From assembly GCA_943788295.1 (NCBI GenBank), contig CALSPS010000006.1, positions 26,192 through 90,191 of the forward strand: a stretch of 64,000 nt of DNA, in the 5' to 3' direction. Below the pieces are notes generated by a model. It saw nothing but the letters and a program-made list of their open reading frames with translations, was not told where the DNA came from and did no database searches. Shown here piece after piece: positions 7,573 to 48,802 of this stretch. Every line of letters starts with the position of its first letter. Positions within the stretch are counted from its first letter, which is position 1. The translations under genes were made by a program, and so were the position numbers. The stretch is from Candidatus Poseidoniaceae archaeon (lineage in GTDB: Archaea; Thermoplasmatota; Poseidoniia; Poseidoniales; Poseidoniaceae).

Positions 7573-8022
7573 TCAAGCGTGCCAAGAAGCGACGCTTTTG
7601 GGTGTTTCTCGAACATGCATGGCCACCAAACGAAGCCTGTTCCCATAGGCAGATTTGATGTGTGGCTCAACTTGCTCGAAAGCCCACTTTGCAAGATTTT
7701 CTGCTGTTGGGACAAATGGGACCACTACAGTCCTGTGGTCTGAGTCCATCATTTTGAGGGCGGAACGTGCTTGCTCATCATGCTCGTAGACCACGAAGGC
7801 GTGATCGACCACATCATGGACGTAAAGGGTAAGAATCTCACTCACATCTGAAAAATCCATCAACATTCCCTCGTCCGAAACGCCGGGATCTTGAACAACA
7901 TCTCCCTCGATTTCTGCCTCAAATCGGTAGCGGTGACCGTGCATGTGCCGACATTTGCTCTTGTGGTTTGGCACACGATGGCCAGTATCAGTCTCAATGT
8001 ATCTTCGTATTCGTGTGGTCAT
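7573..8022 (-). CDS. queD: 6-carboxy-5,6,7,8-tetrahydropterin synthase (QueD / PTPS family)
   Basis: 149-aa translation has the PTPS CxxxHGH-type motif (CRHMHGHRYRFE) and a conserved C-terminus. Its stop overlaps the queC start. Confidence 0.8.
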   Translation of the reverse strand: MTTRIRRYIETDTGHRVPNHKSKCRHMHGHRYRFEAEIEGDVVQDPGVSDEGMLMDFSDVSEILTLYVHDVVDHAFVVYEHDEQARSALKMMDSDHRTVVVPFVPTAENLAKWAFEQVEPHIKSAYGNRLRLVAMHVRETPKSVASWHA

Positions 8023-9173
8023 TGTTCCAACTCCTCAAATTCCAACGAGGCTGAATTGATGCAATATCTCATTCCGCCGTGTTCTCTTGGTCCGTCGTTG
8101 AAAATGTGACCAAGATGTGCGTCGCATTTCGAACATCGAACCTCTGTTCGAATCATGCCATGCGCACGGTCTTCTATTTGATCAATGGACGCCCTTGCAT
8201 GCTCGCTGTGGAAGGATGGCCATCCACAACCGGAATCGAATTTCATGGCAGATGTGAAGAGGTGATGGCCGCAACAGATACAACTGTAATTCCCTGGTCT
8301 TTTCTCATCCCAATACGTACCTGTGAACGCACGCTCAGTCCCACTTTCTCGCGTGACATGATATTGCAGTTGCGTTAATTTCTCTTTGTAATATGCGTCT
8401 TTGTGTTTCCGTTCTGTTTCCAAGGCTGCAGCGAGGACGGTATCCCACGGTTCAGTGTATTCTATTGGGTCGACCAAGTCAAGTGCGTTGAAAGCTAGAA
8501 TTCGTTCCACATCAGAGCCACTACGCCCTGAACTTCTCCCTTCTTGATCAGGGTTGTACGACGTGATGGTGTTTTCAAACACACGGTCAAAATTCAAGCC
8601 AGTCTTGTCGCATGAAGCCAAGGCGTCTTTCAAAATGGTTACCTTGTCTCCGTCAATGTATGGTAGATGGAACGAAACTGTGTGACTGTCCCAGTTCCCC
8701 ACTGCAAAAGCATGCTCTAGGGCTTGGTAAAATTCTGGTCGGCAATCGGGATAGATCGCATGATCTCCTGAGTGCACCCCCAAGGCAATTTCGACATTGG
8801 TCTTTTCTCGTTTGCCCACTGACAGGGCGTATCCGTAGAGGATTGATGCGAAAATGGCGTTCCTATTTGGAACGACCGTTGATTTCATCTGATCTTCTTC
8901 ATAATGGCCTTCGGGAACCACGCTGCCTTTGTTTATCAGAGAAGATTCAAACAAGTTCATCGCTGAAGTCAAATCCACAATGTGATGCTCGATACTGTGT
9001 CCTTTGTCTAGCAAGTATGCAATGTTGTTTGATGCTCTTGTCAACTCAACGCTGTGTTTTTGACCGTAATTATAGGAGATGCAACTGACCTTTTTTCCTG
9101 CCGCTAGGGCGTTCAGGAGCAGTGAAGTAGAATCCATTCCCCCAGAGAGAGCCATGACTGTACGCCCGGACAT
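8019..9173 (-). CDS. queC: 7-cyano-7-deazaguanine synthase QueC fused to a C-terminal methionine-R-sulfoxide reductase MsrB (SelR) domain
   Basis: Residues 1-~230 carry the QueC PP-loop (ALSGGMDSTSLL, YNYGQKH, VVPNRNAIFASI, SGDHAIYPDCRPEF). Residues ~262-384 are a canonical MsrB domain (CxxC...CxxC zinc site, GCGWPSF, HLGHIFNDGP, RYCINS). Confidence 0.8.
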   Translation of the reverse strand: MSGRTVMALSGGMDSTSLLLNALAAGKKVSCISYNYGQKHSVELTRASNNIAYLLDKGHSIEHHIVDLTSAMNLFESSLINKGSVVPEGHYEEDQMKSTVVPNRNAIFASILYGYALSVGKREKTNVEIALGVHSGDHAIYPDCRPEFYQALEHAFAVGNWDSHTVSFHLPYIDGDKVTILKDALASCDKTGLNFDRVFENTITSYNPDQEGRSSGRSGSDVERILAFNALDLVDPIEYTEPWDTVLAAALETERKHKDAYYKEKLTQLQYHVTRESGTERAFTGTYWDEKRPGNYSCICCGHHLFTSAMKFDSGCGWPSFHSEHARASIDQIEDRAHGMIRTEVRCSKCDAHLGHIFNDGPREHGGMRYCINSASLEFEELEQ

Positions 9174-21984: not shown

Positions 21985-23886
21985 TCACTCCACGAACATG
22001 TCTTCCTGGTAGCCCGTGATGATGTCGCCGGTTTCGTCTTCTTCGATGGTCACCGTTTCATCTTCGTCATCAAACTCGATAATGGTGCCAAAGACTTCCT
22101 CATCCTCAAGCGTTAGGCCAATGTGAGAGCCTATGTCGATCTCTCCTTCCCCTTCAGCGTCCTCGTCTTCCACGGATTCTTCGTCGGACTCATCATCCAA
22201 TTCTTCTTCCTCGAAATCCTCTTCGAGGGCTTCTTCCATCTCATCTTCGATGTTATCTTCTTCTTCCGATTCTGATTCAGTCGAAGCATCTGCTTGGTCG
22301 TCTTGGACTTCCTTCATTGCCTTCGCACGTCCACGCCAAGTCGGCATGAGGACCAGATGCATGTAGAGGGAACCAACAAGCCCCGCTGCTCCAAGAATCA
22401 TGAACAGTATTCCGTCCCAATAGAAGCCTGCAGGCATCGAACTGGATTTGCCACCCAGAGGCGTTAATGAGTTCTTACAATCCCCTTCCTGAATCGCAGG
22501 GTCACAGGGATATGAATCGCCTTCAGCAAGACCTGCTGGTGGGAGTAAGTTGCCCTTGGTCTCCAATTCAATTGGACCACCAGTTCCATCAACAATCACG
22601 CCGAATCCATTGACAACCCATAGGGCGATGAACAGTCCAAACGCTAGATGAATCAATGGCCATACATATTCGTTCCATTGCTTACCCATCATGCGCTTTT
22701 GCATCTCTGTTGGGAATGGCTTTGATGGTTTGCTGATGACGGCCCGATCATCTGTGGCTTCATCGGCATCAGCCAAATTTTCTAGGGCGGTGATAAATTC
22801 AATCATGTCCACGGTTCGATCGTTGTCCTCATCGACTTCGCTCAAGAATTCTTCGATTTGCTCGTGCCCGATTTCCTCATCAAACAACTTGTTCAATTCG
22901 TTCATTAATTCAACAACATCCACTCTGCCATTGGCATCTCGGTCAATGCTCCTGAAGAATTGAGCCGGGGAAGTTTCCATTTCATCCATGGCGTCAGCAA
23001 TCTTGCGAATGAGAGAGATCTCTTCGGAGCTTTCGACTTCCTCGGAGTGTGTTTCTTCAGTTTCTTCTTCGTCCATCGATTCTTCGATGCCATCATCTTC
23101 GACTTCCGACGTGTCCTCTTCAGCAACTTCTTCTTCACTCGATTCAGGATCGTCAGATTCAACATCTTCTTCAGAATCTTCGGTTGCCTCTTCTTCAAGT
23201 TCTGAATCTGATTCAACATCTTCTTCAGAATCTTCGGTTGCCTCTTCTTCAAGGTCTGAATCTGATTCAACATTTTCGTCAGTTGCTTCCTCTTCTTCCA
23301 CGGTTTCGGTTTCCACTTCATCTTCAGATTCAGTTTCTTGTTCTTCTTCGGTTCCCGCCACATTCACTTCTTCAGGTTCCTCCATAGCGGTGGTTGAGGT
23401 ATCGTTCAGTTCGTCTTCTGGCAAATCATCTCCAGTGATGGTTTTGTGCAACTCAGCAAGATCGATCCTTCCATCTCCGTCAGCATCTATTGTTTCGATA
23501 AGACGCTCAACTTGTGAAGGCGGCAAGTCTGCCAGATTGAGACTTAACAATCCAGACTTCAACTCACTTGAGTCGATTTGGCCATCGCCGTCCTTGTCGA
23601 ATTTGTTGAAGAGGATCGGAATCGTGATGCCTGTTGTTGCTAACCAATTTCGCAGTACGTCGACCACATCATCGGCAATGAAAACTGTACCGCAGTGGGT
23701 GCATTTGGTCGAATCTAACGGCACGAGGCCACCGCAAGCACCACACTCGCCGAGGGCTTCATCAGAGACTCCGGAAAAGGAAATATTGCATTCTGGACAC
23801 TTGGTTGAATCAAGGGGAATTACTGCTCTGCAAGCACCACATTCTCCTGTGGCAACTTCTTCAGTCTTGTCTTCGGACATAGGCAC
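21985..23886 (-). CDS. Double-zinc-ribbon, four-EF-hand, highly acidic membrane protein
   Basis: 633 aa. Two tandem CxxC...CxxC ribbons at the N-terminus. Four EF-hand loops (DKDGDGQIDSSE, DADGDGRIDLAE, DRDANGRVDVVE, DEDNDRTVDMIE). An acidic tandem-repeat block. Two hydrophobic helices (WPLIHLAFGLFIALWVV and ILFMILGAAGLVGSLYMHLVL). A poly-acidic C-terminal tail. Confidence 0.6.
   Translation of the reverse strand: MPMSEDKTEEVATGECGACRAVIPLDSTKCPECNISFSGVSDEALGECGACGGLVPLDSTKCTHCGTVFIADDVVDVLRNWLATTGITIPILFNKFDKDGDGQIDSSELKSGLLSLNLADLPPSQVERLIETIDADGDGRIDLAELHKTITGDDLPEDELNDTSTTAMEEPEEVNVAGTEEEQETESEDEVETETVEEEEATDENVESDSDLEEEATEDSEEDVESDSELEEEATEDSEEDVESDDPESSEEEVAEEDTSEVEDDGIEESMDEEETEETHSEEVESSEEISLIRKIADAMDEMETSPAQFFRSIDRDANGRVDVVELMNELNKLFDEEIGHEQIEEFLSEVDEDNDRTVDMIEFITALENLADADEATDDRAVISKPSKPFPTEMQKRMMGKQWNEYVWPLIHLAFGLFIALWVVNGFGVIVDGTGGPIELETKGNLLPPAGLAEGDSYPCDPAIQEGDCKNSLTPLGGKSSSMPAGFYWDGILFMILGAAGLVGSLYMHLVLMPTWRGRAKAMKEVQDDQADASTESESEEEDNIEDEMEEALEEDFEEEELDDESDEESVEDEDAEGEGEIDIGSHIGLTLEDEEVFGTIIEFDDEDETVTIEEDETGDIITGYQEDMFVE
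23161..23274. repeat. Perfect-to-near-perfect 57-nt direct tandem duplication (2 copies) inside the acidic region of the EF-hand protein gene
   Basis: aacatcttcttcagaatcttcggttgcctcttcttcaag(t/g)tctgaatctgattc occurs twice back to back. It encodes the repeated peptide ESDSxLEEEATEDSEEDV. Confidence 0.6.
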
Positions 23887-41545: not shown

Positions 41546-42466
41546 TCACTTAGGTGAGTCTTCTTTCGAAGCGTCCTTTTTCTTATCGTTTTTCGATTTC
41601 GTGTCGTCTTTGCTAACGTCATCAGATGCAGCACTTTCAGCAAGGGTTGCCTCCTTTTTCACAGCACGTTTCTTAGCAGCATTTTCTTGGCGCTTTTGGA
41701 AGGAGTCACCAAAGTTCGCCATGCTTTCAAGCCGGAGGGCGATCCCAGTGAGTTCTTCACCTTCTGCACGGACATATTTGACGAGGTAAGCGCCGAACAA
41801 CATGTCGTATAGACCTTGGTTTTGGTCGCTGTTTTTCTTAAATCGACCATCAATAATGCGAACTGAAAACAGAATGATACCAAGCACAAGGAGTCCAATA
41901 GCAACCGGGTTGGCTTTGCCAGCAGTGTCGAAGAGATTGCCCATGTTGATAATCACCAATGAAAGTCCCACAAGAGCCATCAGTCCAACTGAATTGACAA
42001 GGAACCCATGCAAGGGGTTAGGCTTAGAGTCAGCTGAGGTGATGTACCTTGTTCTTGACATAAAATTGCCAAGGGTTCGCCCAGTCATGATCGGAATGAC
42101 AAAGACGTTTGTGATGATCATTAAGAGAGCTAGAACAGCGGGGATGGTGGGTGTCGAGCCCATGACTGAAAGGAAAATGGCGGCAAAGAGAACGCCAAAA
42201 TTCCAAATGAAATTCATCAACCAGGCCAAAAACCGGGAGTTTTGCGTAGCAATTTCATACCCTTCCGGGAGTCCGGCAGTGCTTAATTTGGGCTTTTTTG
42301 CACGAGGTGCTTTTGCTGCCTTTGCAGCCTTGACTGGTTTTGCTACAGCAGCTACTGTTTGTGGAATGGGTTTCGCCACTGCCTTTTTGGCTACGGCCTT
42401 GGGGGGCACTTCCTTTGTTTCGCTGCCTGCTGTGTTTGCCTTGTCTAGTAGTCCCATCGTGGTCAC
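41546..42466 (-). CDS. RDD-family membrane protein flanked by Lys/Ala-rich N- and C-terminal tails
   Basis: 306 aa; histone-H1-like AKK/AKP tail (KAVAKKAVAKPIP...AKAAKAPRAKKPK), three TM helices with an RDD-like core, and a C-terminal KKRAVKKE...KKKDASKEDSPK tail. Confidence 0.5.
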   Translation of the reverse strand: MTTMGLLDKANTAGSETKEVPPKAVAKKAVAKPIPQTVAAVAKPVKAAKAAKAPRAKKPKLSTAGLPEGYEIATQNSRFLAWLMNFIWNFGVLFAAIFLSVMGSTPTIPAVLALLMIITNVFVIPIMTGRTLGNFMSRTRYITSADSKPNPLHGFLVNSVGLMALVGLSLVIINMGNLFDTAGKANPVAIGLLVLGIILFSVRIIDGRFKKNSDQNQGLYDMLFGAYLVKYVRAEGEELTGIALRLESMANFGDSFQKRQENAAKKRAVKKEATLAESAASDDVSKDDTKSKNDKKKDASKEDSPK

Positions 42467-43464
42467 TCACCGTTGTATTGTGCGCCAATAGCGCTGTAAA
42501 TTTGGAAATTCTCTGAGGCAACAAAGGCATTGATGTCTGACTCGGCCATGTTCCCGAGTTGACCGTCAACTATGGTGAAGAAAGCAGCCCTCATTTCGTC
42601 ACTTGCATTGTGAGGGTCGCTTCCGACGGCCTCGTAGACTGCGAAATCTTCACTGCCCACAAACGCGGTGACAACCTCTTCTGGCAAATTTGAGCCAAGA
42701 AGGTCGTCAACAATTCCGACAAAGGTGACAAACATGTCATCACTTTGCTCTGTTTCGGTAGAAATTGGTTGTGCTGTAGTCACTTCATCAGACGCGCCAG
42801 CAATCATTGATTGGAGGGACTTTCGTTCAGCCATCAACGTTTCAAGAACTGGCCGCAGTTCTGCAAGAACCTGAGCGTCTCCTGCAACCTTTGCTGCTTG
42901 GTATTCGGGCTTCAAGGAGCGCAGTTCATCCTCAATCATGCTTAATTGAGTTTGGAGTTCATTCCCAACGGTCTCTGATTCAAGAAGTTCGACAACAGGG
43001 GCGTCTCGAACTTCAGAAACTTTTTCTTCGTGTTCTTGCTTGCGCAAAACGATGATGTCTCTGTCAAGTGCATGGCCAAAGCGGTCGGCATAGCGATCCA
43101 GGAGCGACCCGGCATCTGCGGATGAAATCCGGTCAATGTGGCCGTAAATCTGCGGGAGTGGTTTCTCTGAACGCTTGGCCCATAGGTCGCCGTATTTGTC
43201 AGAGCCGGGTGCATCGGAAGATGCAGGGGGGCGATCGTTGTTCCAAACTGATGCCTCCGCAGGTGTAGGGAGTGGCGCATCAGGAAGTGGAAGCGCTGGT
43301 GCTGCAGCCGGTGCGGGTGGCAATGGTAGTGGAGGGTTGCCAGCAGCGGCTCCTGGAGGTGCCGGCATAGGCGGCATACCGGGCAATGGCGGCAATGGAA
43401 GTCCTGGTGTTGGTTCGGCTGGAGCCTTGTTTTTCTTACCTTTCCTCAGACCCACACGGTTCAC
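42463..43464 (-). CDS. Hypothetical protein: polyproline N-terminus, central coiled coil, duplicated C-terminal motif
   Basis: 333 aa; PLPPLPGMPPMPAPPGAAAGNPPLPLPPAPAAAPALPLP. A heptad-like region (LQTQLSMIEDELRSLKPEYQAAK). C-terminal internal repeat FVGSEDFAVYEAVGSD / FVASENFQIYSAIGAQ. 4-nt overlap with the RDD gene. Confidence 0.5.
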   Translation of the reverse strand: MNRVGLRKGKKNKAPAEPTPGLPLPPLPGMPPMPAPPGAAAGNPPLPLPPAPAAAPALPLPDAPLPTPAEASVWNNDRPPASSDAPGSDKYGDLWAKRSEKPLPQIYGHIDRISSADAGSLLDRYADRFGHALDRDIIVLRKQEHEEKVSEVRDAPVVELLESETVGNELQTQLSMIEDELRSLKPEYQAAKVAGDAQVLAELRPVLETLMAERKSLQSMIAGASDEVTTAQPISTETEQSDDMFVTFVGIVDDLLGSNLPEEVVTAFVGSEDFAVYEAVGSDPHNASDEMRAAFFTIVDGQLGNMAESDINAFVASENFQIYSAIGAQYNGE

Positions 43465-43551: not shown

Positions 43552-44754
43552 CTATGCAATGACTTTTGCCCATCCTTTGAGAACCAAAAACGTAGCACCT
43601 GCTTCGTGAATTTCAAATTGGTCACCACTGGCCTTATCATACACGTTGTCGCCGAATTGGGCAATTGAATCATCGACCGTCATTTCCACTGTTAGCATGT
43701 CTTGAGTGCTTAATGCGAGTGCTTCATGAAGGGGTGAATATGGATTCGAACCGTCAGGATCAAGCCTCGATAGAGGGAATTCACTCACCCTCATGCCCGA
43801 CTTGCCATGAAGCGATGTAGGCCATCGAATTTGCCGACGAACGTCGATGGTAACAACTTCATCGGTTTCACCCGCCGAACCCAGAACCACTGAAGTATCC
43901 GTTTTGAGCAAATCCAGAAAAAGGGCCTGATGTTTATCGAGGACTCCAAAATTCCCATCCCTCAATCGAGAGGCACGGTCTGGATGATTGACAATGGATG
44001 CGAGTTGTTCGATGGATGTCGGTCCTTTAGTTGATTTTCGACCTTCGCGTTGAGACTGTGACTTCAATCCTTCATGGAGTGTTTTAATCACTTTTTTGTG
44101 ACCCTCATTTTTTTCAGCAATGCCCTGCAATTTAGCAATCATGCCACCCATTCCATCGCGAATTCTACGCGTCCAACCCTCGCTCGAAAGGTCGTGATAT
44201 CGCGCGAGTCCCCCTTTGACATCCACGCCTTCGCCTCTGATGTATGACACCATTTCCCTTCGAGCTTCTGAATCGAGATGGAAGAGCGATGGATCTCGAT
44301 AGTGGAGGTGGAACCCTCTGTGGCCCGAAAAGGTCACTTGCAAGTATTTTTCTTGAAATCCAAATTCTGGTTCAAGAAAGTCATTCCACAACGACCATGC
44401 TTGTTCGTGGATGACTTCGAGCATTCCCGGGAAATCTTTGTCGGTCACACCCGGTAAGTGATCACCGTCTAAATCAAAAATTAAATCAGCACCCAGCCAA
44501 TTTTTATCGGCCATTTTCATCTCAAAAGGGCGCTCCCAATATGCGGTTGAGTAGAAGCAAGAGTGCATTGCTCGGTCTGTAAGGAATTGACGGACCCCTT
44601 GCATATCACTGAATCCCTTGTGGCGGATTGGAGGCGCCCCCCCGAATGGAATGAACATCCATTCTCTGGTTTTCATGCGCGGAGGTGTCCAAAATTCTGA
44701 ACTGCGATAGTATGCACCAAAACGATGTGCAAACCTAGCCCAACCTGTTGCCAA
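43552..44754 (-). CDS. priS: DNA primase small (catalytic) subunit PriS
   Basis: 400 aa; catalytic acidic motif LIFDLDGDH, SGHRGFHLHY. Archaeo-eukaryotic primase fold pattern. Confidence 0.8.
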   Translation of the reverse strand: MATGWARFAHRFGAYYRSSEFWTPPRMKTREWMFIPFGGAPPIRHKGFSDMQGVRQFLTDRAMHSCFYSTAYWERPFEMKMADKNWLGADLIFDLDGDHLPGVTDKDFPGMLEVIHEQAWSLWNDFLEPEFGFQEKYLQVTFSGHRGFHLHYRDPSLFHLDSEARREMVSYIRGEGVDVKGGLARYHDLSSEGWTRRIRDGMGGMIAKLQGIAEKNEGHKKVIKTLHEGLKSQSQREGRKSTKGPTSIEQLASIVNHPDRASRLRDGNFGVLDKHQALFLDLLKTDTSVVLGSAGETDEVVTIDVRRQIRWPTSLHGKSGMRVSEFPLSRLDPDGSNPYSPLHEALALSTQDMLTVEMTVDDSIAQFGDNVYDKASGDQFEIHEAGATFLVLKGWAKVIA

Positions 44755-44807: not shown

Positions 44808-45017
44808 TTATTCGTTGGTCATCCAGAAACGTTCTTCCGCTTCTCCGACTGATGTTGCGGTGTCTGCACCGGTTGATTCAACGTAGTGTTCCCAGCACAT
44901 GTAGAACTTGCCAACAACCATAGCGTTGCCAAAAGTAAGGCGGACGCCGCATGATTCACAGCGAGGGCCAATTTCACCATTTGGTGCTTGAGCGAGGGTG
45001 ATGTGTTCGTGTGGCAT
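44808..45017 (-). CDS. Small TRASH/L24e-like zinc-ribbon protein (hypothetical)
   Basis: ORF 44808..45116; the internal ATG at 45017 avoids overlap with the upstream gene. The motif CESCGVRLTFGNAMVVGKFYMCWEHY recalls the C-x2-C...FCS-type TRASH ribbon. Confidence 0.3.
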   Translation of the reverse strand: MPHEHITLAQAPNGEIGPRCESCGVRLTFGNAMVVGKFYMCWEHYVESTGADTATSVGEAEERFWMTNE

Positions 45018-45076: not shown

Positions 45077-45571
45077 CTACCAACTGGTTTCTTCCCACTG
45101 TGGTGATTTGCACCATTGAAGTAAATCAAGGGCGACTTCGCAAGATTCTGCAACTTCTGGATTCGCGTCGCCGAGGTGAGCTTCAAGCACATGCATCACG
45201 CTTGGGTCGCCAATGGCCCCCATTGCTTCGGCAGCTTCGTGTCGAACCATGATATGCTCCTGATCGTCGCTGAGCCTTTCGATGAGGGTTGGTAAGGCCG
45301 TAGGATTTTGCATTTGGCCAAGCACATACGCCAATTCATGACGCAACAATGCACTGCTTGATATGAACGCTCCACACAATGCTAAGCATGCTTCGTCTGA
45401 CCCGTCGTTGCGAAGAGAGAACACTGTTCGCATTCTTTGGAACATTGGTGCCGTTTCATCCATCAGGAGAGCCGACCACTCATCGAGTGTTCCTGTGTTC
45501 TGCGGGGGGGCAGGGTCAACCGAACCATATTGGCTCACTCCCGGCGCCCTTTCAGCCATAAAAATCACCAC
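45077..45571 (-). CDS. Half-length deoxyhypusine-hydroxylase (DOHH)-like HEAT-repeat protein with two His-Glu metal motifs
   Basis: 164 aa. SVDPAPP linker-like N-terminus; ALLRHELAYVLGQMQ and VRHEAAEAMGAIGDPSV HE motifs. A C-terminal ESCEVALDLL closely resembles one half of eukaryotic DOHH (E-Z-type HEAT pairs). Confidence 0.6.
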   Translation of the reverse strand: MVIFMAERAPGVSQYGSVDPAPPQNTGTLDEWSALLMDETAPMFQRMRTVFSLRNDGSDEACLALCGAFISSSALLRHELAYVLGQMQNPTALPTLIERLSDDQEHIMVRHEAAEAMGAIGDPSVMHVLEAHLGDANPEVAESCEVALDLLQWCKSPQWEETSW

Positions 45572-46459
45572 TCAGGACTCATTTGAGCCAATAAATTGCA
45601 TCTCTGCAGGATTAAAGGTTTGATCAATCAGACCGAGTTCTTGTCCTTCGGTGATGAATTGGCGGATAGAAGCACGACCTTCTTGTTTGTAATCGATTGT
45701 ACGGTCATTGACGTACATGCTCACGAATTCCTTATTCGTTTCATCGTCAATTCCTCTGCCCCATTTCTTGGCGAATTCAAGTGCTTCAGCAGGTGACTTC
45801 AGAGCATACTCGATGCTCATTTTAGTGTACATGGTGATGTCTTCCATTGCTTTTGAGCCAAGATCACGCCGGACGACATTTCCTCCGAGCGGCATTGGCC
45901 AGCCACCCGTTCGCTCGTTCCACCAAACGCCAAGGTCGATGTGAACGTGGAGGTCGTGTTCAACATAGGTCAGTTGACCTTCGTGAATAATGAGGCCACT
46001 CAAGTAGGTTCCGTCGAGGACTCTTGGAATGATTTCGTCAAAAGGAACAACCGCAACTTCACAATCCCCCCAAGCCAAGCGCAATCCCATGTAGGCACTG
46101 GTCTTCAGGCCCGGAACGGCAATGACATTGCTTCGAACATCTGACTCACTTGCACCTTGCATTGAAACAACCATTGGGCCGTAGCCCTCACCCATCGATG
46201 CACCACAATTCATCAAAGCATAGTTCTCGGAAATTTCGGGGAAAGCGTGGATGGAAACTGCTGAAACTTCGAGATCGCAATTCATTGCACGGTGATTGAG
46301 GGTTTCGATGTCTTGCAATTCGTGGACAAAATTGTAACCTGGTGTTGGAAAGGCCCCGGTTGTCATGGCGTGGAACATAAACGCATCATCTGGGTCGGGG
46401 GAGTGACCAATTCGAACAATTTTGTTGCCGTTTTCATCGAGGGGTAACTGAGCCACCAT
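45572..46459 (-). CDS. mqnD: 1,4-dihydroxy-6-naphthoate synthase MqnD-like (MqnA/MqnD periplasmic-binding-fold family)
   Basis: ORF to 46492; IGHSPDPDDAFMFHAM resembles the MqnD GYSPCPNDTFIFYAL N-terminus. An internal ATG at 46459 is the likely start. Confidence 0.55.
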   Translation of the reverse strand: MVAQLPLDENGNKIVRIGHSPDPDDAFMFHAMTTGAFPTPGYNFVHELQDIETLNHRAMNCDLEVSAVSIHAFPEISENYALMNCGASMGEGYGPMVVSMQGASESDVRSNVIAVPGLKTSAYMGLRLAWGDCEVAVVPFDEIIPRVLDGTYLSGLIIHEGQLTYVEHDLHVHIDLGVWWNERTGGWPMPLGGNVVRRDLGSKAMEDITMYTKMSIEYALKSPAEALEFAKKWGRGIDDETNKEFVSMYVNDRTIDYKQEGRASIRQFITEGQELGLIDQTFNPAEMQFIGSNES

Positions 46460-46627
46460 GGAGGTTCGACAGGCGCGTCCTTGATGAACCAACCGCTATT
46501 TTTTCCTGAGTTGTACAATTCCGACATCTGTGATGCATTCACCGATTTGTTTTCAGTGTTGATTGATTCATCAAAGCCTAAGGGGAGTCATTGTTTGGGG
46601 GTCAAATCAACTGGTTGCATTGCATTC

Positions 46628-48802
46628 ATGCTGTTGGTGATGCTTTCTATGCCTGTGGCCTCAAGTGCGTCAACCATATCGTTCACTGGCGCCACTACCG
46701 TGGAGGCCACTGACGGATCTTCCGCCCTAACCATTGATTCTGAACAGAAATACCTAGCGAGCGGTTACGATGACCACATGGCCATTATGTGGCTAGAAAA
46801 TTTGTCGCTGATTGAAATTATTGATGTTGATCGACCCGTCGAATCGCTGGAATTTTCGCCAGATGGTTCTCAATTGGCCATTGCGATATCAGGTTCTGAA
46901 ACGAAGGTCGACACCATTCAATTATTCGATGTCCAAAGCATGACCATGAGCGCTAAGCAGCAAGCTGCAAACGCACGGCCAGTGGACATTGCCTGGTCCC
47001 CAGATGGTCTTTTGCTCGCCGTTCCAAACGCCAATAATGGCATTGATTTAATCCGTATTTCCGATATGGAAATTGAGCGGAGTTTGACTGGTGAGCATAA
47101 CACGGACGTAACATGTGTCGGATTCACAAGCAATGGTGGCCACATCATCAGCGGAGATGAGTCTGGGCGAATGGTTATGTGGAACAGCGATGGTACGCCA
47201 ACATCCAAAAAATGGGAGTTTGGGAATGAACTCAAAGCATGTTCCTTTGATCCAACTGACACACGCATAGCATCGCTTACCACAGACGGAGCGTTGAACA
47301 CCTTCTCCTTCGCCGGTGGTGCATTACAAAGCACGCAATTCACTTCCGGAGGCGGCATGTCATGGTCTCACGAGGGGACCTACATTCACTTGACTGAAAA
47401 CGGAGATGAACCGCGATTACTGACGCTGGATGCTTCTACATTTGAACAAGTGGAAGCAACCTCTATGGCTCATCAGGTGCTCGATGTTGCAACTATCGAA
47501 AACCAATTTGGGTTAATCCAAGAATTCTACGCAGCGACCAATACTCTTCACTTAGCCGGGTATGGCAGCCATTCCGTGCCTGAAGGAATGGGTGTGGCCG
47601 GAGCTGACCTCGACGGAGACGGCATCCCTGATACCCTTGATGATGACGACGATGGCGATGCGATATTGGACCAGTGGGATACCTACTGCGGCGAGATAGA
47701 AACTGATTGTTCACGCTCCCCTCACGAAGATCATATTCGTTCACTTACGATTCAAATGAACGCCACGCACATGACCATTAAGGATCGGATCAAATTAGAT
47801 ATCGTCCTTTCATCCTCAATCAGAAATATGTCGAGAATATCTGTCATTGAGGATGCCCAACTCAGTGTCAGCGAGACCGATTTATTTGCCCGCTCCATTT
47901 GTGCCAACCACGATGAAACAAGAATCCTCGAACAGTGGAAAGATACGTTGATGCTTTCTGAAGGTCAATTAGAAGGTGGGGTCGTGAACTGCGCGGTAAG
48001 CGAAGGCATGACGCTTCGTGCGCAAAATGATTTCAAAACTCACATCGGTGTTGAATACACTATTTCCTTCAACCTGTCCTCGTCACCGGCATTTCCGTTG
48101 ACTGTTAGGTTCGAAGAGCAAACTGTAGCCACTGATGCGTCATTGACCCATCTTGCAGAAATGCATCCCATTCATGTGGTCCTCTCTGCAAACGGGGCAA
48201 ATGATGTCGAATTGTCTCCTTGGTGGACCACTGAATCTCCTTTGGAACTCACATTGGAAGAACGTGTTGTCAAAGAGCCTACCTTGACTCAGAAAGGTGT
48301 GGGTTTATTCGCTGATTATCCCATTCTCTTTGTCGTCGTCCTTGGCTTCCTTGGAGGAGGTATTTTGCTTGTATTGAGGACTAAAAATACAATGGGAATG
48401 GATCTCAACATCTTTGATGAAGATGATGACGATGAGCCTAGTTCCGAAGAAGACGTGGCTGAACCAAGCGCACAAATTGAGCAAGAAACTTTGAACGAGG
48501 CATCCAATGTTGAAACCGAAACAGAACATCTCGTCGATTCAAAAACTACTGTTCGGGACACAACAAGCGATCGCTCAGTTCAATCAACTAAGCGTAGGAA
48601 AGTGAGCCCATCCACAACCAGAGATGGCCCTATTACAACGGTAAAGAGAAAGCGCTTGGATGGAGGAGGGAACCCTCCTGTCCAGAAGAGATCAACCAGC
48701 AAAAAACGAGTTGTCAAGGTGAGTGAAACGACGAAGCGGAAGACCAGAAGGGTTGTGACTCAAGCCGATAAAGATGAAGAAGACACTTCACCAAGCGAAT
48801 GA
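46628..48802 (+). CDS. Secreted WD40/beta-propeller repeat surface protein with a C-terminal TM anchor and a Lys/Arg-rich cytoplasmic tail
   Basis: ORF 46481..48802; a signal-peptide-like start is at ATG 46628 (MLLVMLSMPVASSAS). Repeated SPDG-, WSPDG-, GD.SG-type WD/PQQ-like blades. A DLDGDGIPDTLDDDDDGD calcium-binding-like loop. A TM helix (LFVVVLGFLGGGILLVL) and a basic tail. Confidence 0.55.
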   Translation: MLLVMLSMPVASSASTISFTGATTVEATDGSSALTIDSEQKYLASGYDDHMAIMWLENLSLIEIIDVDRPVESLEFSPDGSQLAIAISGSETKVDTIQLFDVQSMTMSAKQQAANARPVDIAWSPDGLLLAVPNANNGIDLIRISDMEIERSLTGEHNTDVTCVGFTSNGGHIISGDESGRMVMWNSDGTPTSKKWEFGNELKACSFDPTDTRIASLTTDGALNTFSFAGGALQSTQFTSGGGMSWSHEGTYIHLTENGDEPRLLTLDASTFEQVEATSMAHQVLDVATIENQFGLIQEFYAATNTLHLAGYGSHSVPEGMGVAGADLDGDGIPDTLDDDDDGDAILDQWDTYCGEIETDCSRSPHEDHIRSLTIQMNATHMTIKDRIKLDIVLSSSIRNMSRISVIEDAQLSVSETDLFARSICANHDETRILEQWKDTLMLSEGQLEGGVVNCAVSEGMTLRAQNDFKTHIGVEYTISFNLSSSPAFPLTVRFEEQTVATDASLTHLAEMHPIHVVLSANGANDVELSPWWTTESPLELTLEERVVKEPTLTQKGVGLFADYPILFVVVLGFLGGGILLVLRTKNTMGMDLNIFDEDDDDEPSSEEDVAEPSAQIEQETLNEASNVETETEHLVDSKTTVRDTTSDRSVQSTKRRKVSPSTTRDGPITTVKRKRLDGGGNPPVQKRSTSKKRVVKVSETTKRKTRRVVTQADKDEEDTSPSE

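What the first reader, a model, noticed from the sequence alone, without database searches (positions are those of the whole stretch)
45077..45571. Stand-alone half-size deoxyhypusine hydroxylase (DOHH) homologue in an archaeon
The 164-aa protein aligns by eye almost residue-for-residue with one half of eukaryotic DOHH. Shared elements are the SVDPAPP inter-half linker, F.LRN.G...A, LxHELAYVLGQxQ, VRHEAxEAxGAIG and ESCEVALD.

Eukaryotic DOHH is a four-His-Glu diiron enzyme built from two such halves. This ORF carries only two HE motifs and is flanked tightly by mqnD, so it is not a truncated remnant of a full-length gene. No DOHH is recognised in archaea, and the hydroxylase step of hypusine formation in archaea is unassigned.

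A homodimeric half-DOHH would be an ancestral-like form. It could be the missing archaeal enzyme, or a eukaryote-derived transfer.
Basis: partly seen in the sequence, partly recalled or inferred. Interest (0 to 1): 0.7.

Follow-up and report, generated by a model that had tools for sequence, protein, structure and literature searches.

The report
Half-size archaeal deoxyhypusine hydroxylase homologue
A marine archaeon (Marine Group II) carries a well-conserved gene for exactly one half of the eukaryotic enzyme that completes the hypusine modification of translation factor 5A, an enzyme that reviews say has no archaeal counterpart, and two copies probably pair up to rebuild its two-iron active site.

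Summary
The minus-strand ORF 45077-45571 (more likely start ATG 45559, 160 aa) matches human DOHH (PDB 4D4Z) at E=4e-67. It aligns without gaps to both halves: 44.8% identity to the N half and 47.6% to the linker plus C half. The two human halves share 40%.

The Fe-binding and deoxyhypusine-binding residues are invariant in the 53 orthologues aligned (H74-E75, G81, H107-E108), as is the GSVDPAPP tail.

The host is Ca. Poseidoniales. Single-copy orthologues of about 160 aa occur in at least 80 species-level genomes. They are found in both families, always just downstream of mqnD, with dN/dS of 0.02-0.18 and no GC anomaly.

A head-to-tail tandem of the protein models confidently (pLDDT 92) onto human DOHH (TM 0.93, 2.0 A).

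In distance analyses the archaeal clade sits near the N/C split, with the shortest path to that node. It is not inside either crown eukaryotic half-clade, so a recent eukaryotic transfer is unlikely. Tree resolution is weak.

Best reading: a homodimeric DOHH-type diiron hydroxylase acting on deoxyhypusinated aIF5A. Activity, dimerisation and substrate are inferred. IMG already labels it automatically, but I found no paper describing it.

The parts
45077..45559 (-). Coding sequence of the half-size DOHH homologue: 160 aa plus stop, four HEAT repeats and two His-Glu motifs.
   Evidence: The ORF is listed, and the ATG start is used by gene callers. It matches human DOHH 4D4Z at E=4e-67. dN/dS is 0.02-0.18.
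45564..45569 (-). SD-like GGTGAT, 5 nt upstream of the ATG. It lies inside the 12-nt spacer after the mqnD stop codon (45572-45574).
   Evidence: Read directly from the sequence. The function is inferred.
45503..45526 (-). N-terminal tail motif G12-S-V-D-P-A-P-P19. It is equivalent to the inter-half linker motif of eukaryotic DOHH (human S151-P157).
   Evidence: The alignment is. Residues 12-18 are invariant and P19 is at least 90% conserved across 53 orthologues. The second-copy tail in the tandem model has pLDDT of about 94.
45335..45340 (-). First His-Glu motif, H74-E75 (CAT GAA). It is equivalent to human H56-E57 and H207-E208.
   Evidence: H74 invariant; E75 invariant among the 53 orthologues and at least 90% conserved in the alignment with eukaryotic DOHH. 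The residue roles come from PMC9117371.
45317..45319 (-). G81, equivalent to human G214 and its N-half counterpart (a substrate-binding glycine).
   Evidence: It is invariant. The role comes from PMC9117371.
45236..45241 (-). Second His-Glu motif, H107-E108 (CAC GAA). It is equivalent to human H89-E90 and H240-E241.
   Evidence: The residue roles come from PMC9117371.
45572..46459 (-). Upstream mqnD-like gene (VitK2_biosynth, futalosine pathway). It is probably co-transcribed with the DOHH homologue.
   Evidence: Pfam gives E=4.9e-61. The adjacency is conserved in all loci. In MGIIb the pair is inverted as a unit.
44808..45017 (-). Downstream conserved 69-aa Cys/His-containing protein of unknown function. 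It travels with PriS, not with the DOHH gene.
   Evidence: It has no Pfam hit.
43552..44754 (-). Archaeal DNA primase small subunit PriS. It serves as a context marker of an archaeal chromosome.
   Evidence: Pfam and NCBIfam hits.

Best explanation
The gene encodes a functional DOHH-family protein that is one 'arm' of the eukaryotic enzyme. It has an N-terminal GSVDPAPP tail, four HEAT repeats and two His-Glu motifs.

Two identical chains most likely associate head-to-head, as the N and C arms of eukaryotic DOHH do. Each chain would supply two His and one Glu (H74, H107, E108) to one iron, building a symmetric non-haem diiron centre on the dyad axis. E75 and G81 from both chains would line the pocket for the deoxyhypusine side chain.

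Using O2, the dimer would hydroxylate deoxyhypusine on aIF5A to hypusine in these aerobic marine archaea.

**Shown:** specific homology to DOHH, conservation of the catalytic and substrate-binding residues, purifying selection, order-wide vertical inheritance, and compatibility of a tandem with the DOHH fold.

**Inferred:** dimerisation, iron binding, the aIF5A substrate, and the evolutionary reading. That reading is that the protein descends from, or stayed close to, the pre-duplication half-size ancestor of eukaryotic DOHH.
For: **Homology.** Human DOHH matches at E=4e-67 with gap-free alignment to both halves. Identity is 44.8% to the N half and 47.6% to the linker plus C half, against 40.2% between the human halves.

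**Residues.** H74, E75, G81, H107 and E108 are invariant in 53 orthologues; H74, G81, H107 and E108 are also invariant in a 102-row alignment with eukaryotic DOHH, where E75 is at least 90% conserved. These are the residues reported to anchor the diiron centre and bind the deoxyhypusine chain (PMC9117371).

**Selection and distribution.** dN/dS is 0.02-0.18. Orthologues occur in 80 species-level Poseidoniales genomes with conserved synteny. They are also in Thalassarchaeaceae. There is one copy per locus.

**Structure.** The tandem model has pLDDT 91.8 and pTM 0.90. It superposes on 4D4Z with TM 0.93 and rmsd 2.0 A over 288 columns. Other HEAT proteins give TM at or below 0.7 and rmsd of about 7-22 A.

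**Evolutionary position.**
- Identity to N halves is 41% and to C halves 44%, against 37% between N and C.
- The profile fit is nearly equal to both halves.
- The path to the common node is the shortest: 0.40, against 0.60 for C and 0.69 for N. All three stems have confidence intervals above zero.
Against: - No biochemical data exist. aIF5A and deoxyhypusine synthase were not found in the window or the fetched loci. Their presence in the genome rests on literature only.
- Early amino-acid analyses found mostly deoxyhypusine, with no or only low hypusine, in cultured Euryarchaeota including Thermoplasmatales.
- The only strictly conserved neighbour is a menaquinone gene, not a translation gene.
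- The tandem model was guided by an alignment of full-length eukaryotic DOHHs. It shows compatibility, not independent evidence for a homodimer.
- NJ bootstrap for the placement is weak: MGII monophyly 75, N 35 and C 29 of 100.
Confidence: 0.6

Rival explanations
1. The fold and diiron chemistry are the same, but the substrate is different. The protein would be a hydroxylase tied to menaquinone or quinone metabolism, because it is co-transcribed with mqnD inside the futalosine gene cluster.
For: The gene lies 0-15 nt downstream of, or overlapping, mqnD in every locus. In MGIIb the mqnD-DOHH pair is inverted as a unit and sits between mqnD and mqnA/mqnC. No translation gene is a conserved neighbour.
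Against: - From established knowledge, the futalosine route to menaquinone needs no hydroxylation step.
- The residues that bind the aminobutyl-lysine chain in human DOHH (E57/E208 and G214 equivalents) are invariant here.
- 45-48% identity to human DOHH across domains suggests an unchanged, highly constrained substrate.
- The whole region is syntenic across the order, so adjacency alone is weak evidence.
Confidence: 0.1
2. This rival concerns origin. The gene would be a secondary fission product: the linker plus C-terminal half of a eukaryotic two-arm DOHH, acquired by horizontal transfer and then re-adapted to homodimerise. It would not be an ancestral-type half.
For: - The GSVDPAPP tail matches only the eukaryotic inter-half linker. 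No such motif was found at the N terminus of 133 eukaryotic representatives.
- Identity and HMM scores are slightly higher to C halves.
- At the few diagnostic columns, MGII is C-like at 3 and N-like at 1.
- No homologue was seen in other archaea.
Against: - In the core, MGII fits the N-half profile about as well as the C-half profile (-193 against -200). True C halves fit the N profile much worse (-221).
- MGII is closer to N halves (41%) than C halves are (37%).
- The stem separating MGII from crown C halves is above zero (0.150, CI 0.082-0.228).
- The best eukaryotic C half is only 53.5% identical.
- There is no GC anomaly.
- Two eukaryotic N termini carry SVKPAPP or DPAP-like vestiges.

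A transfer from the eukaryotic stem just after the duplication cannot be excluded.
Confidence: 0.2
3. The protein is an obligate heterodimer with a second, still unidentified HEAT half encoded elsewhere in the genome.
For: Eukaryotic DOHH is built from two non-identical arms. Only about 20 kb per genome was examined here.
Against: - There is one copy per locus and none elsewhere in the 64-kb window.
- The genome scan returned one locus per genome.
- Among the top 150 50%-identity representatives there is a single half-size cluster.
Confidence: 0.06
4. The protein is a non-catalytic HEAT/PBS-lyase-like scaffold, and the DOHH resemblance is generic.
For: Pfam and NCBIfam return only HEAT_2, HEAT_PBS and weak NblB/CpcE hits. 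NCBI names it a HEAT repeat domain-containing protein or PBS lyase.
Against: - The DOHH match (E=4e-67) exceeds any other HEAT protein by more than 30 orders of magnitude.
- The NblB and CpcE scores (22 and 19 bits) are far below their cut-offs of 300 and 330.
- Both His-Glu motifs are invariant.
Confidence: 0.03

Closest known systems
Eukaryotic deoxyhypusine hydroxylase (human DOHH, yeast Lia1; EC 1.14.99.29; PDB 4D4Z)
   Same: - The HEAT-repeat arm is the same: 45-48% identity to each human arm, aligned without gaps.
- The His-Glu metal motifs and the substrate-binding Glu and Gly are the same.
- The Y.SVDPAPP element is the same.
- A tandem of the archaeal protein models onto 4D4Z at TM 0.93.
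   Different: - It has one arm only: 160 aa, four HEAT repeats and two His-Glu motifs, against about 300 aa, eight repeats and four motifs. The active site would therefore need two chains.
- The SVDPAPP element is a free N-terminal tail, not an inter-arm linker.
- The host is an archaeon.
- The gene is co-transcribed with mqnD.
PBS-lyase HEAT-like proteins (CpcE/CpcF, NblB; Pfam HEAT_PBS/HEAT_2)
   Same: They share the short HEAT-like repeat type. These are the only library families that match.
   Different: Scores are far below the family cut-offs: 22 and 19 bits against 300 and 330. Foldseek gives TM below 0.35 to CpcE/F and MpeQ structures. The organism is not a cyanobacterium and has no phycobilisome context. 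The DOHH-specific His-Glu motifs are present.
Architectural analogy only: retroviral aspartic protease (homodimer of one lobe) versus pepsin (two fused lobes)
   Same: A half-size chain would form an active site on a dyad axis that the fused, duplicated relative forms within one chain. This is established knowledge, used only as an analogy.
   Different: The fold and chemistry are unrelated. Dimerisation of the archaeal protein is not demonstrated.

Membership tests
Deoxyhypusine hydroxylase (DOHH/Lia1) | Specific sequence homology to characterised DOHH over the whole HEAT arm. | tested here: met
   phmmer against 4D4Z gives E=4e-67. Both arms align without gaps at 44.8% and 47.6% identity.
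Deoxyhypusine hydroxylase (DOHH/Lia1) | Conserved His-Glu motifs that anchor the diiron centre (human H56, H89, E90, H207, H240, E241). | tested here: met
   H74, H107 and E108 are invariant in 53 orthologues and in the alignment with 101 eukaryotic DOHHs. Residue roles come from PMC9117371. There are two motifs per chain, not four.
Deoxyhypusine hydroxylase (DOHH/Lia1) | Residues that bind the deoxyhypusine side chain (human E57, E208, G214 and the N-arm glycine). | tested here: met
   E75 and G81 are invariant.
Deoxyhypusine hydroxylase (DOHH/Lia1) | Single chain of eight HEAT repeats forming a symmetric dyad with four His-Glu motifs. | tested here: not met
   The protein has 160 aa, four repeats and two motifs. 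No second half lies within 10 kb or in the window. The dyad could form only between two chains.
Deoxyhypusine hydroxylase (DOHH/Lia1) | The two arms pack into the closed DOHH shape around the metal site. | tested here: inconclusive
   The tandem model has pLDDT 91.8 and TM 0.93 to 4D4Z. However, its alignment consisted of fused eukaryotic DOHHs. No multimer prediction or model coordinates were available.
Deoxyhypusine hydroxylase (DOHH/Lia1) | Binds two Fe and hydroxylates deoxyhypusine on (a/e)IF5A with O2. | not testable with these tools
   This needs biochemistry or mass spectrometry.
Deoxyhypusine hydroxylase (DOHH/Lia1) | Co-occurs with IF5A and deoxyhypusine synthase in the same genome. 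| not tested
   Neither gene is in the window or the fetched loci. The literature reports DHS homologues in all archaeal genomes and a DHS-like speY next to speDA and speB in MGII.
PBS-lyase HEAT-like proteins (CpcE/NblB) | Score above the NCBIfam equivalog cut-off. | tested here: not met
   NblB scores 22.1 bits against a cut-off of 300. CpcE scores 18.9 bits against 330.

The most novel reading that the evidence does not exclude
Poseidoniales retain the pre-duplication, homodimeric form of deoxyhypusine hydroxylase. On this reading they make true hypusine on aIF5A. The eukaryotic two-arm enzyme would have arisen by tandem duplication and fusion of such a half, with the free N-terminal tail becoming the inter-arm linker. 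That implies an ancient gene exchange, or shared ancestry, between this archaeal lineage and the eukaryotic stem.
Probability: 0.3. Interest if true: 0.85.

Novelty: new variant of a known kind. Interest (0 to 1): 0.7.

Why it matters
Hypusine is a unique and essential modification of one translation factor. Reviews repeatedly state that archaea have the first enzyme (DHS) but no DOHH orthologue, which leaves archaeal hypusine formation and the origin of DOHH unexplained.

This gene would matter in three ways:
- It provides a concrete, easily expressed candidate in one of the most abundant archaeal groups of the surface ocean.
- It offers a natural 'half enzyme' for asking how a diiron site forms between HEAT arms.
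- It gives an outgroup-like sequence for reconstructing how the eukaryotic enzyme arose by duplication and fusion.

It does not explain hypusine in Crenarchaeota, where no homologue is reported.

Tried and rejected
- **Stop-codon readthrough fusion of MqnD and DOHH.** In the window the two ORFs are in the same frame, separated by one TGA. Across 86 loci the frame relation and spacing vary, so I rejected this.
- **Contamination or a chimeric eukaryotic contig.** I rejected this because of conserved archaeal synteny in more than 80 MAGs and SAGs, contigs up to 1.68 Mb, and the adjacent PriS.
- **Recent horizontal transfer.** There is no GC or GC3 anomaly. No eukaryotic half exceeds 53.5% identity.
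- **Second paralogous half nearby.** None was found.
- **Single-sequence AlphaFold model.** It was too poor to use (pLDDT 54).
- **Tandem rows of other MGII proteins in the alignment.** Only the window tandem plus eukaryotic rows could be used.
- **NJ bootstrap.** It could not resolve whether MGII branches with N, with C, or between them.
- **Diagnostic-column test.** Too few columns were available: 2-5.
- **afdb50 fold library.** It was unavailable.
- **Park et al. 2006 (PMC1324997).** The paper is not held.
- **Promoter and terminator scan.** Results were at background level.
- **Literature searches.** Searches for DOHH with Marine Group II, Poseidoniales, Asgard, or 'deoxyhypusine monooxygenase' in archaea found nothing relevant.

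Full report
**What is there**

The minus strand carries an ORF at 45077..45571, 164 aa counted from a GTG that directly follows the mqnD stop codon. Gene callers on near-identical public contigs start it at ATG 45559, giving 160 aa. That start is preceded by GGTGAT at 45569-45564, read directly from the sequence. I use the 160-aa numbering below.

**Is the DOHH resemblance real?**

Yes. phmmer against all PDB chains gives human deoxyhypusine hydroxylase 4D4Z at E=4e-67.

- There are two gap-free alignments. Query residues 31-155 (the query was the 164-aa ORF) match human residues 14-138 (N arm, 104.9 bits). Query residues 10-152 match human residues 144-286 (linker plus C arm, 124.5 bits).
- Identity is 44.8% to the N arm and 47.6% to the linker plus C arm. 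The two human arms are 40.2% identical to each other in the same register.
- The next PDB hits are synthetic alphaRep consensus HEAT proteins, at no more than 30 bits per stretch.
- Pfam sees only HEAT_2 and HEAT_PBS. NCBIfam gives NblB and CpcE at 22 and 19 bits, against cut-offs of 300 and 330.

The generic library labels therefore reflect the absence of a DOHH-specific model among the returned families. They do not mean the similarity is generic.

**Organism and conservation**

A scan of one genome per prokaryotic species returned 80 loci. Nearly all are labelled Poseidoniales, Poseidoniaceae or Poseidonia (Marine Group II), at 60-97% identity, one per genome. Two are obviously mis-binned records.

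Gene order is the same in all 80: mqnA-like, an optional WD40 gene on the other strand, mqnD, the DOHH half, a 69-aa protein, PriS, and two further conserved genes.

The most divergent half-size cluster, P0266, is 55% identical. It belongs to a clade that includes a protein labelled Ca. Thalassarchaeaceae (MGIIb). The gene is therefore present in both families of the order.

Further evidence that it is a maintained archaeal gene:
- Pairwise dN/dS is 0.02-0.18.
- GC is 52.8%, against 49% for the window, within the range of neighbouring genes.
- Only one copy exists per locus and in the window.

This is a long-resident, vertically inherited, functional gene. It is neither a remnant nor a contaminant.

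**Catalytic residues**

In 53 orthologues the invariant positions include H74-E75, G81, H107-E108 and S13-P18 of the tail.

In an alignment of a tandem of the window protein with 101 full-length eukaryotic-type DOHHs, the invariant columns are essentially these same positions, in both copies.

According to the Park review (PMC9117371):
- Human H56, H89, E90, H207, H240 and E241 anchor the diiron centre.
- E57, E90, E208, E241 and two glycines bind the deoxyhypusine side chain.

The archaeal protein has the equivalent of every one of these, once per chain. By that assignment each human arm supplies two His and one Glu. Two identical archaeal chains would therefore supply the same ligand set.

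**Architecture**

A single-sequence AlphaFold run was uninformative (pLDDT 54).

A head-to-tail tandem of the window protein, using eukaryotic DOHHs as the alignment, gave pLDDT 91.8 and pTM 0.90.

- The tail of the second copy, acting as linker, is confidently placed (pLDDT about 94 at SVDPAPP).
- The first copy's tail is disordered.

Foldseek against PDB puts 4D4Z first, with TM 0.93, rmsd 2.0 A and 288 columns. All other HEAT proteins give TM at or below 0.7 and rmsd of about 7-22 A.

This shows that two copies are compatible with the closed DOHH dyad. It is not independent proof of a homodimer, because the alignment rows are fused enzymes.

The GSVDPAPP motif is at least 95% conserved at a free N terminus. 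That suggests the element does more than link two arms. My inference is that it packs on the partner chain or near the active-site entrance.

**Context**

The only neighbour that always stays with the gene is mqnD.

- In MGIIa the order is mqnC/E, mqnA, (WD40), mqnD, DOHH, small protein, PriS.
- In MGIIb the mqnD-DOHH pair is inverted as a unit. It sits between the small-protein/PriS block and mqnA/mqnC, and the mqnD stop abuts the DOHH ATG.
- Spacing is 0-15 nt or overlapping, with varying frame relations.

This indicates co-transcription and rules out a programmed readthrough fusion.

I treat a quinone-related role as a rival, but a minor one. The futalosine pathway has no known hydroxylation step (established knowledge). 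The side-chain-binding residues of DOHH are intact. The whole region is syntenic anyway.

No aIF5A or DHS gene lies in the window or in the fetched loci. Their presence in the genome rests on two sources. One is the statement that all archaeal genomes encode DHS. The other is a reported speDA-speB-DHS-like cluster in MGII. That cluster resembles the ADC-agmatinase-DHS arrangement proposed for deoxyhypusine synthesis in Haloferax.

**Evolutionary position**

I split 98 two-arm representatives into N and C halves. Examples checked are eukaryotic: Plasmodiophora and EukProt entries, and a picoeukaryote-like contig context. I compared the halves with MGII sequences over 127 core columns, excluding the tail.

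| Comparison | Mean identity |
|---|---|
| MGII vs N | 41.3% |
| MGII vs C | 44.2% |
| N vs C | 36.6% |
| N vs N | 39.8% |
| C vs C | 47.2% |

Column-profile log-likelihoods:

| Sequences | Under N profile | Under C profile |
|---|---|---|
| MGII | -193 | -200 |
| C halves | -221 | -156 |
| N halves | -183 | -252 |

A three-point distance analysis with 25 MGII sequences and 300 bootstraps gave the following:
- Paths from the common node are 0.40 for MGII (CI 0.31-0.50), 0.60 for C and 0.69 for N.
- Stems are 0.148 (MGII), 0.117 (N) and 0.150 (C), all with confidence intervals above zero.

On the full data, NJ recovers three clean clades. Bootstrap support is weak: 75, 35 and 29 of 100.

MGII is thus a slowly evolving lineage that joins near the N/C split. 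It is not nested in a crown eukaryotic half. This argues against a recent eukaryote-to-archaeon transfer. It fits either a pre-duplication half or a very early post-duplication offshoot.

In favour of a C-arm origin, the tail motif occurs only in the linker. It was absent from the N termini of 133 eukaryotic representatives, except for SVKPAPP and DPAP-like vestiges in two.

There is a selection caveat. The eukaryotic sample is the top 150 hits to the MGII query, which slightly inflates MGII-to-eukaryote similarity.

**What is known**

- A 2021 review repeats this.
- Early analyses found hypusine in Crenarchaeota but mainly deoxyhypusine in Euryarchaeota, including Thermoplasmatales.
- Full-text searches combining DOHH or deoxyhypusine with Marine Group II, Poseidoniales, Asgard, homodimer, or 'deoxyhypusine monooxygenase' found no description of this protein.
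- IMG/JGI already auto-annotates many of these genes as 'deoxyhypusine monooxygenase'. NCBI calls them HEAT repeat proteins or PBS lyase.

The homology has thus been seen by pipelines, but I found no discussion of it in the literature searched.

**Verdict**

The protein is a genuine DOHH-family protein with a half-size architecture, conserved across Poseidoniales. The most likely mechanism is a homodimeric diiron monooxygenase that converts deoxyhypusine-aIF5A to hypusine-aIF5A. Poseidoniales are aerobic surface-ocean archaea (established knowledge), which suits an O2-dependent enzyme.

It fails one defining feature of the eukaryotic family, the single-chain eight-repeat dyad. I therefore file it as a new variant, not a plain member.

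**Limits**

- The representative search list was truncated at 169 bits. Other half-size families outside Poseidoniales cannot be excluded.
- No multimer model or model coordinates were available.
- Substrate, metal content and oligomeric state are untested.

Noticed in passing
window 45557-45574 (minus strand); loci L001-L086: The mqnD stop (TGA) and the DOHH ORF are in the same frame in the window, separated by GTG GTG ATT TTT before the ATG. Across orthologous loci the spacing and frame vary: abutting, 3-15 nt apart, or overlapping in another frame. This looks like translational coupling, not a readthrough fusion.
   Followed up: yes
L085/L086 9143-10480, compared with window 45077-46492: In MGIIb the two-gene unit mqnD-DOHH is inverted relative to MGIIa, while the flanking blocks keep their order and orientation: small protein and PriS on one side, mqnA and mqnC on the other. 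Why a hypusine-pathway homologue is locked to a menaquinone gene is unexplained.
   Followed up: partly
window 44808-45017 (-): A conserved 69-aa protein with no Pfam hit carries near-invariant MPH, GPRC..C, TFG and YMCW motifs. It sits immediately upstream of PriS in all 86 loci and stays with PriS in MGIIb. It may be a zinc-binding primase accessory protein.
   Followed up: partly
window 46481-48802 (+): A 773-aa protein has an N-terminal WD40 beta-propeller, with best matches to eukaryote-type propeller families, and a long acidic/basic low-complexity tail. It is inserted on the opposite strand between mqnA-like and mqnD. It is present only in a subset of MGIIa genomes (L001-L017) and absent from most Poseidonia loci.
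   Followed up: partly
window 21985-23886 (-): A 633-aa protein has several EF-hand calcium-binding motifs, which is unusual for an archaeon.
   Followed up: no
window 8019-9173 (-): This appears to be a fusion of QueC (7-cyano-7-deazaguanine synthase) with a C-terminal SelR/MsrB methionine-sulfoxide reductase domain. It lies next to a radical-SAM gene (possibly QueE-like) and GTP cyclohydrolase I.
   Followed up: no
proteins P0265 and P0267 (eukaryote-type DOHH representatives, N termini): Two full-length DOHH representatives carry SVKPAPPS or repeated DPAP at their extreme N terminus. This resembles the SVDPAPP linker/tail motif. It could be a vestige of an ancestral N-terminal tail on the first arm.
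   Followed up: partly
window 42463-43464 (-) and 41546-42466 (-): A 333-aa protein with a Pro/Ala-rich N terminus and no Pfam hit is followed by a weak RDD-family membrane protein with a Lys/Ala-rich N terminus. Both are conserved downstream of PriS across the order.
   Followed up: no
L061 and L066 (records titled Verrucomicrobiales bacterium and Salinimicrobium sp.): These two public MAG contigs carry the full Poseidoniales synteny block (mqnD, DOHH, small protein, PriS). They are therefore probably mis-binned archaeal contigs.
   Followed up: partly
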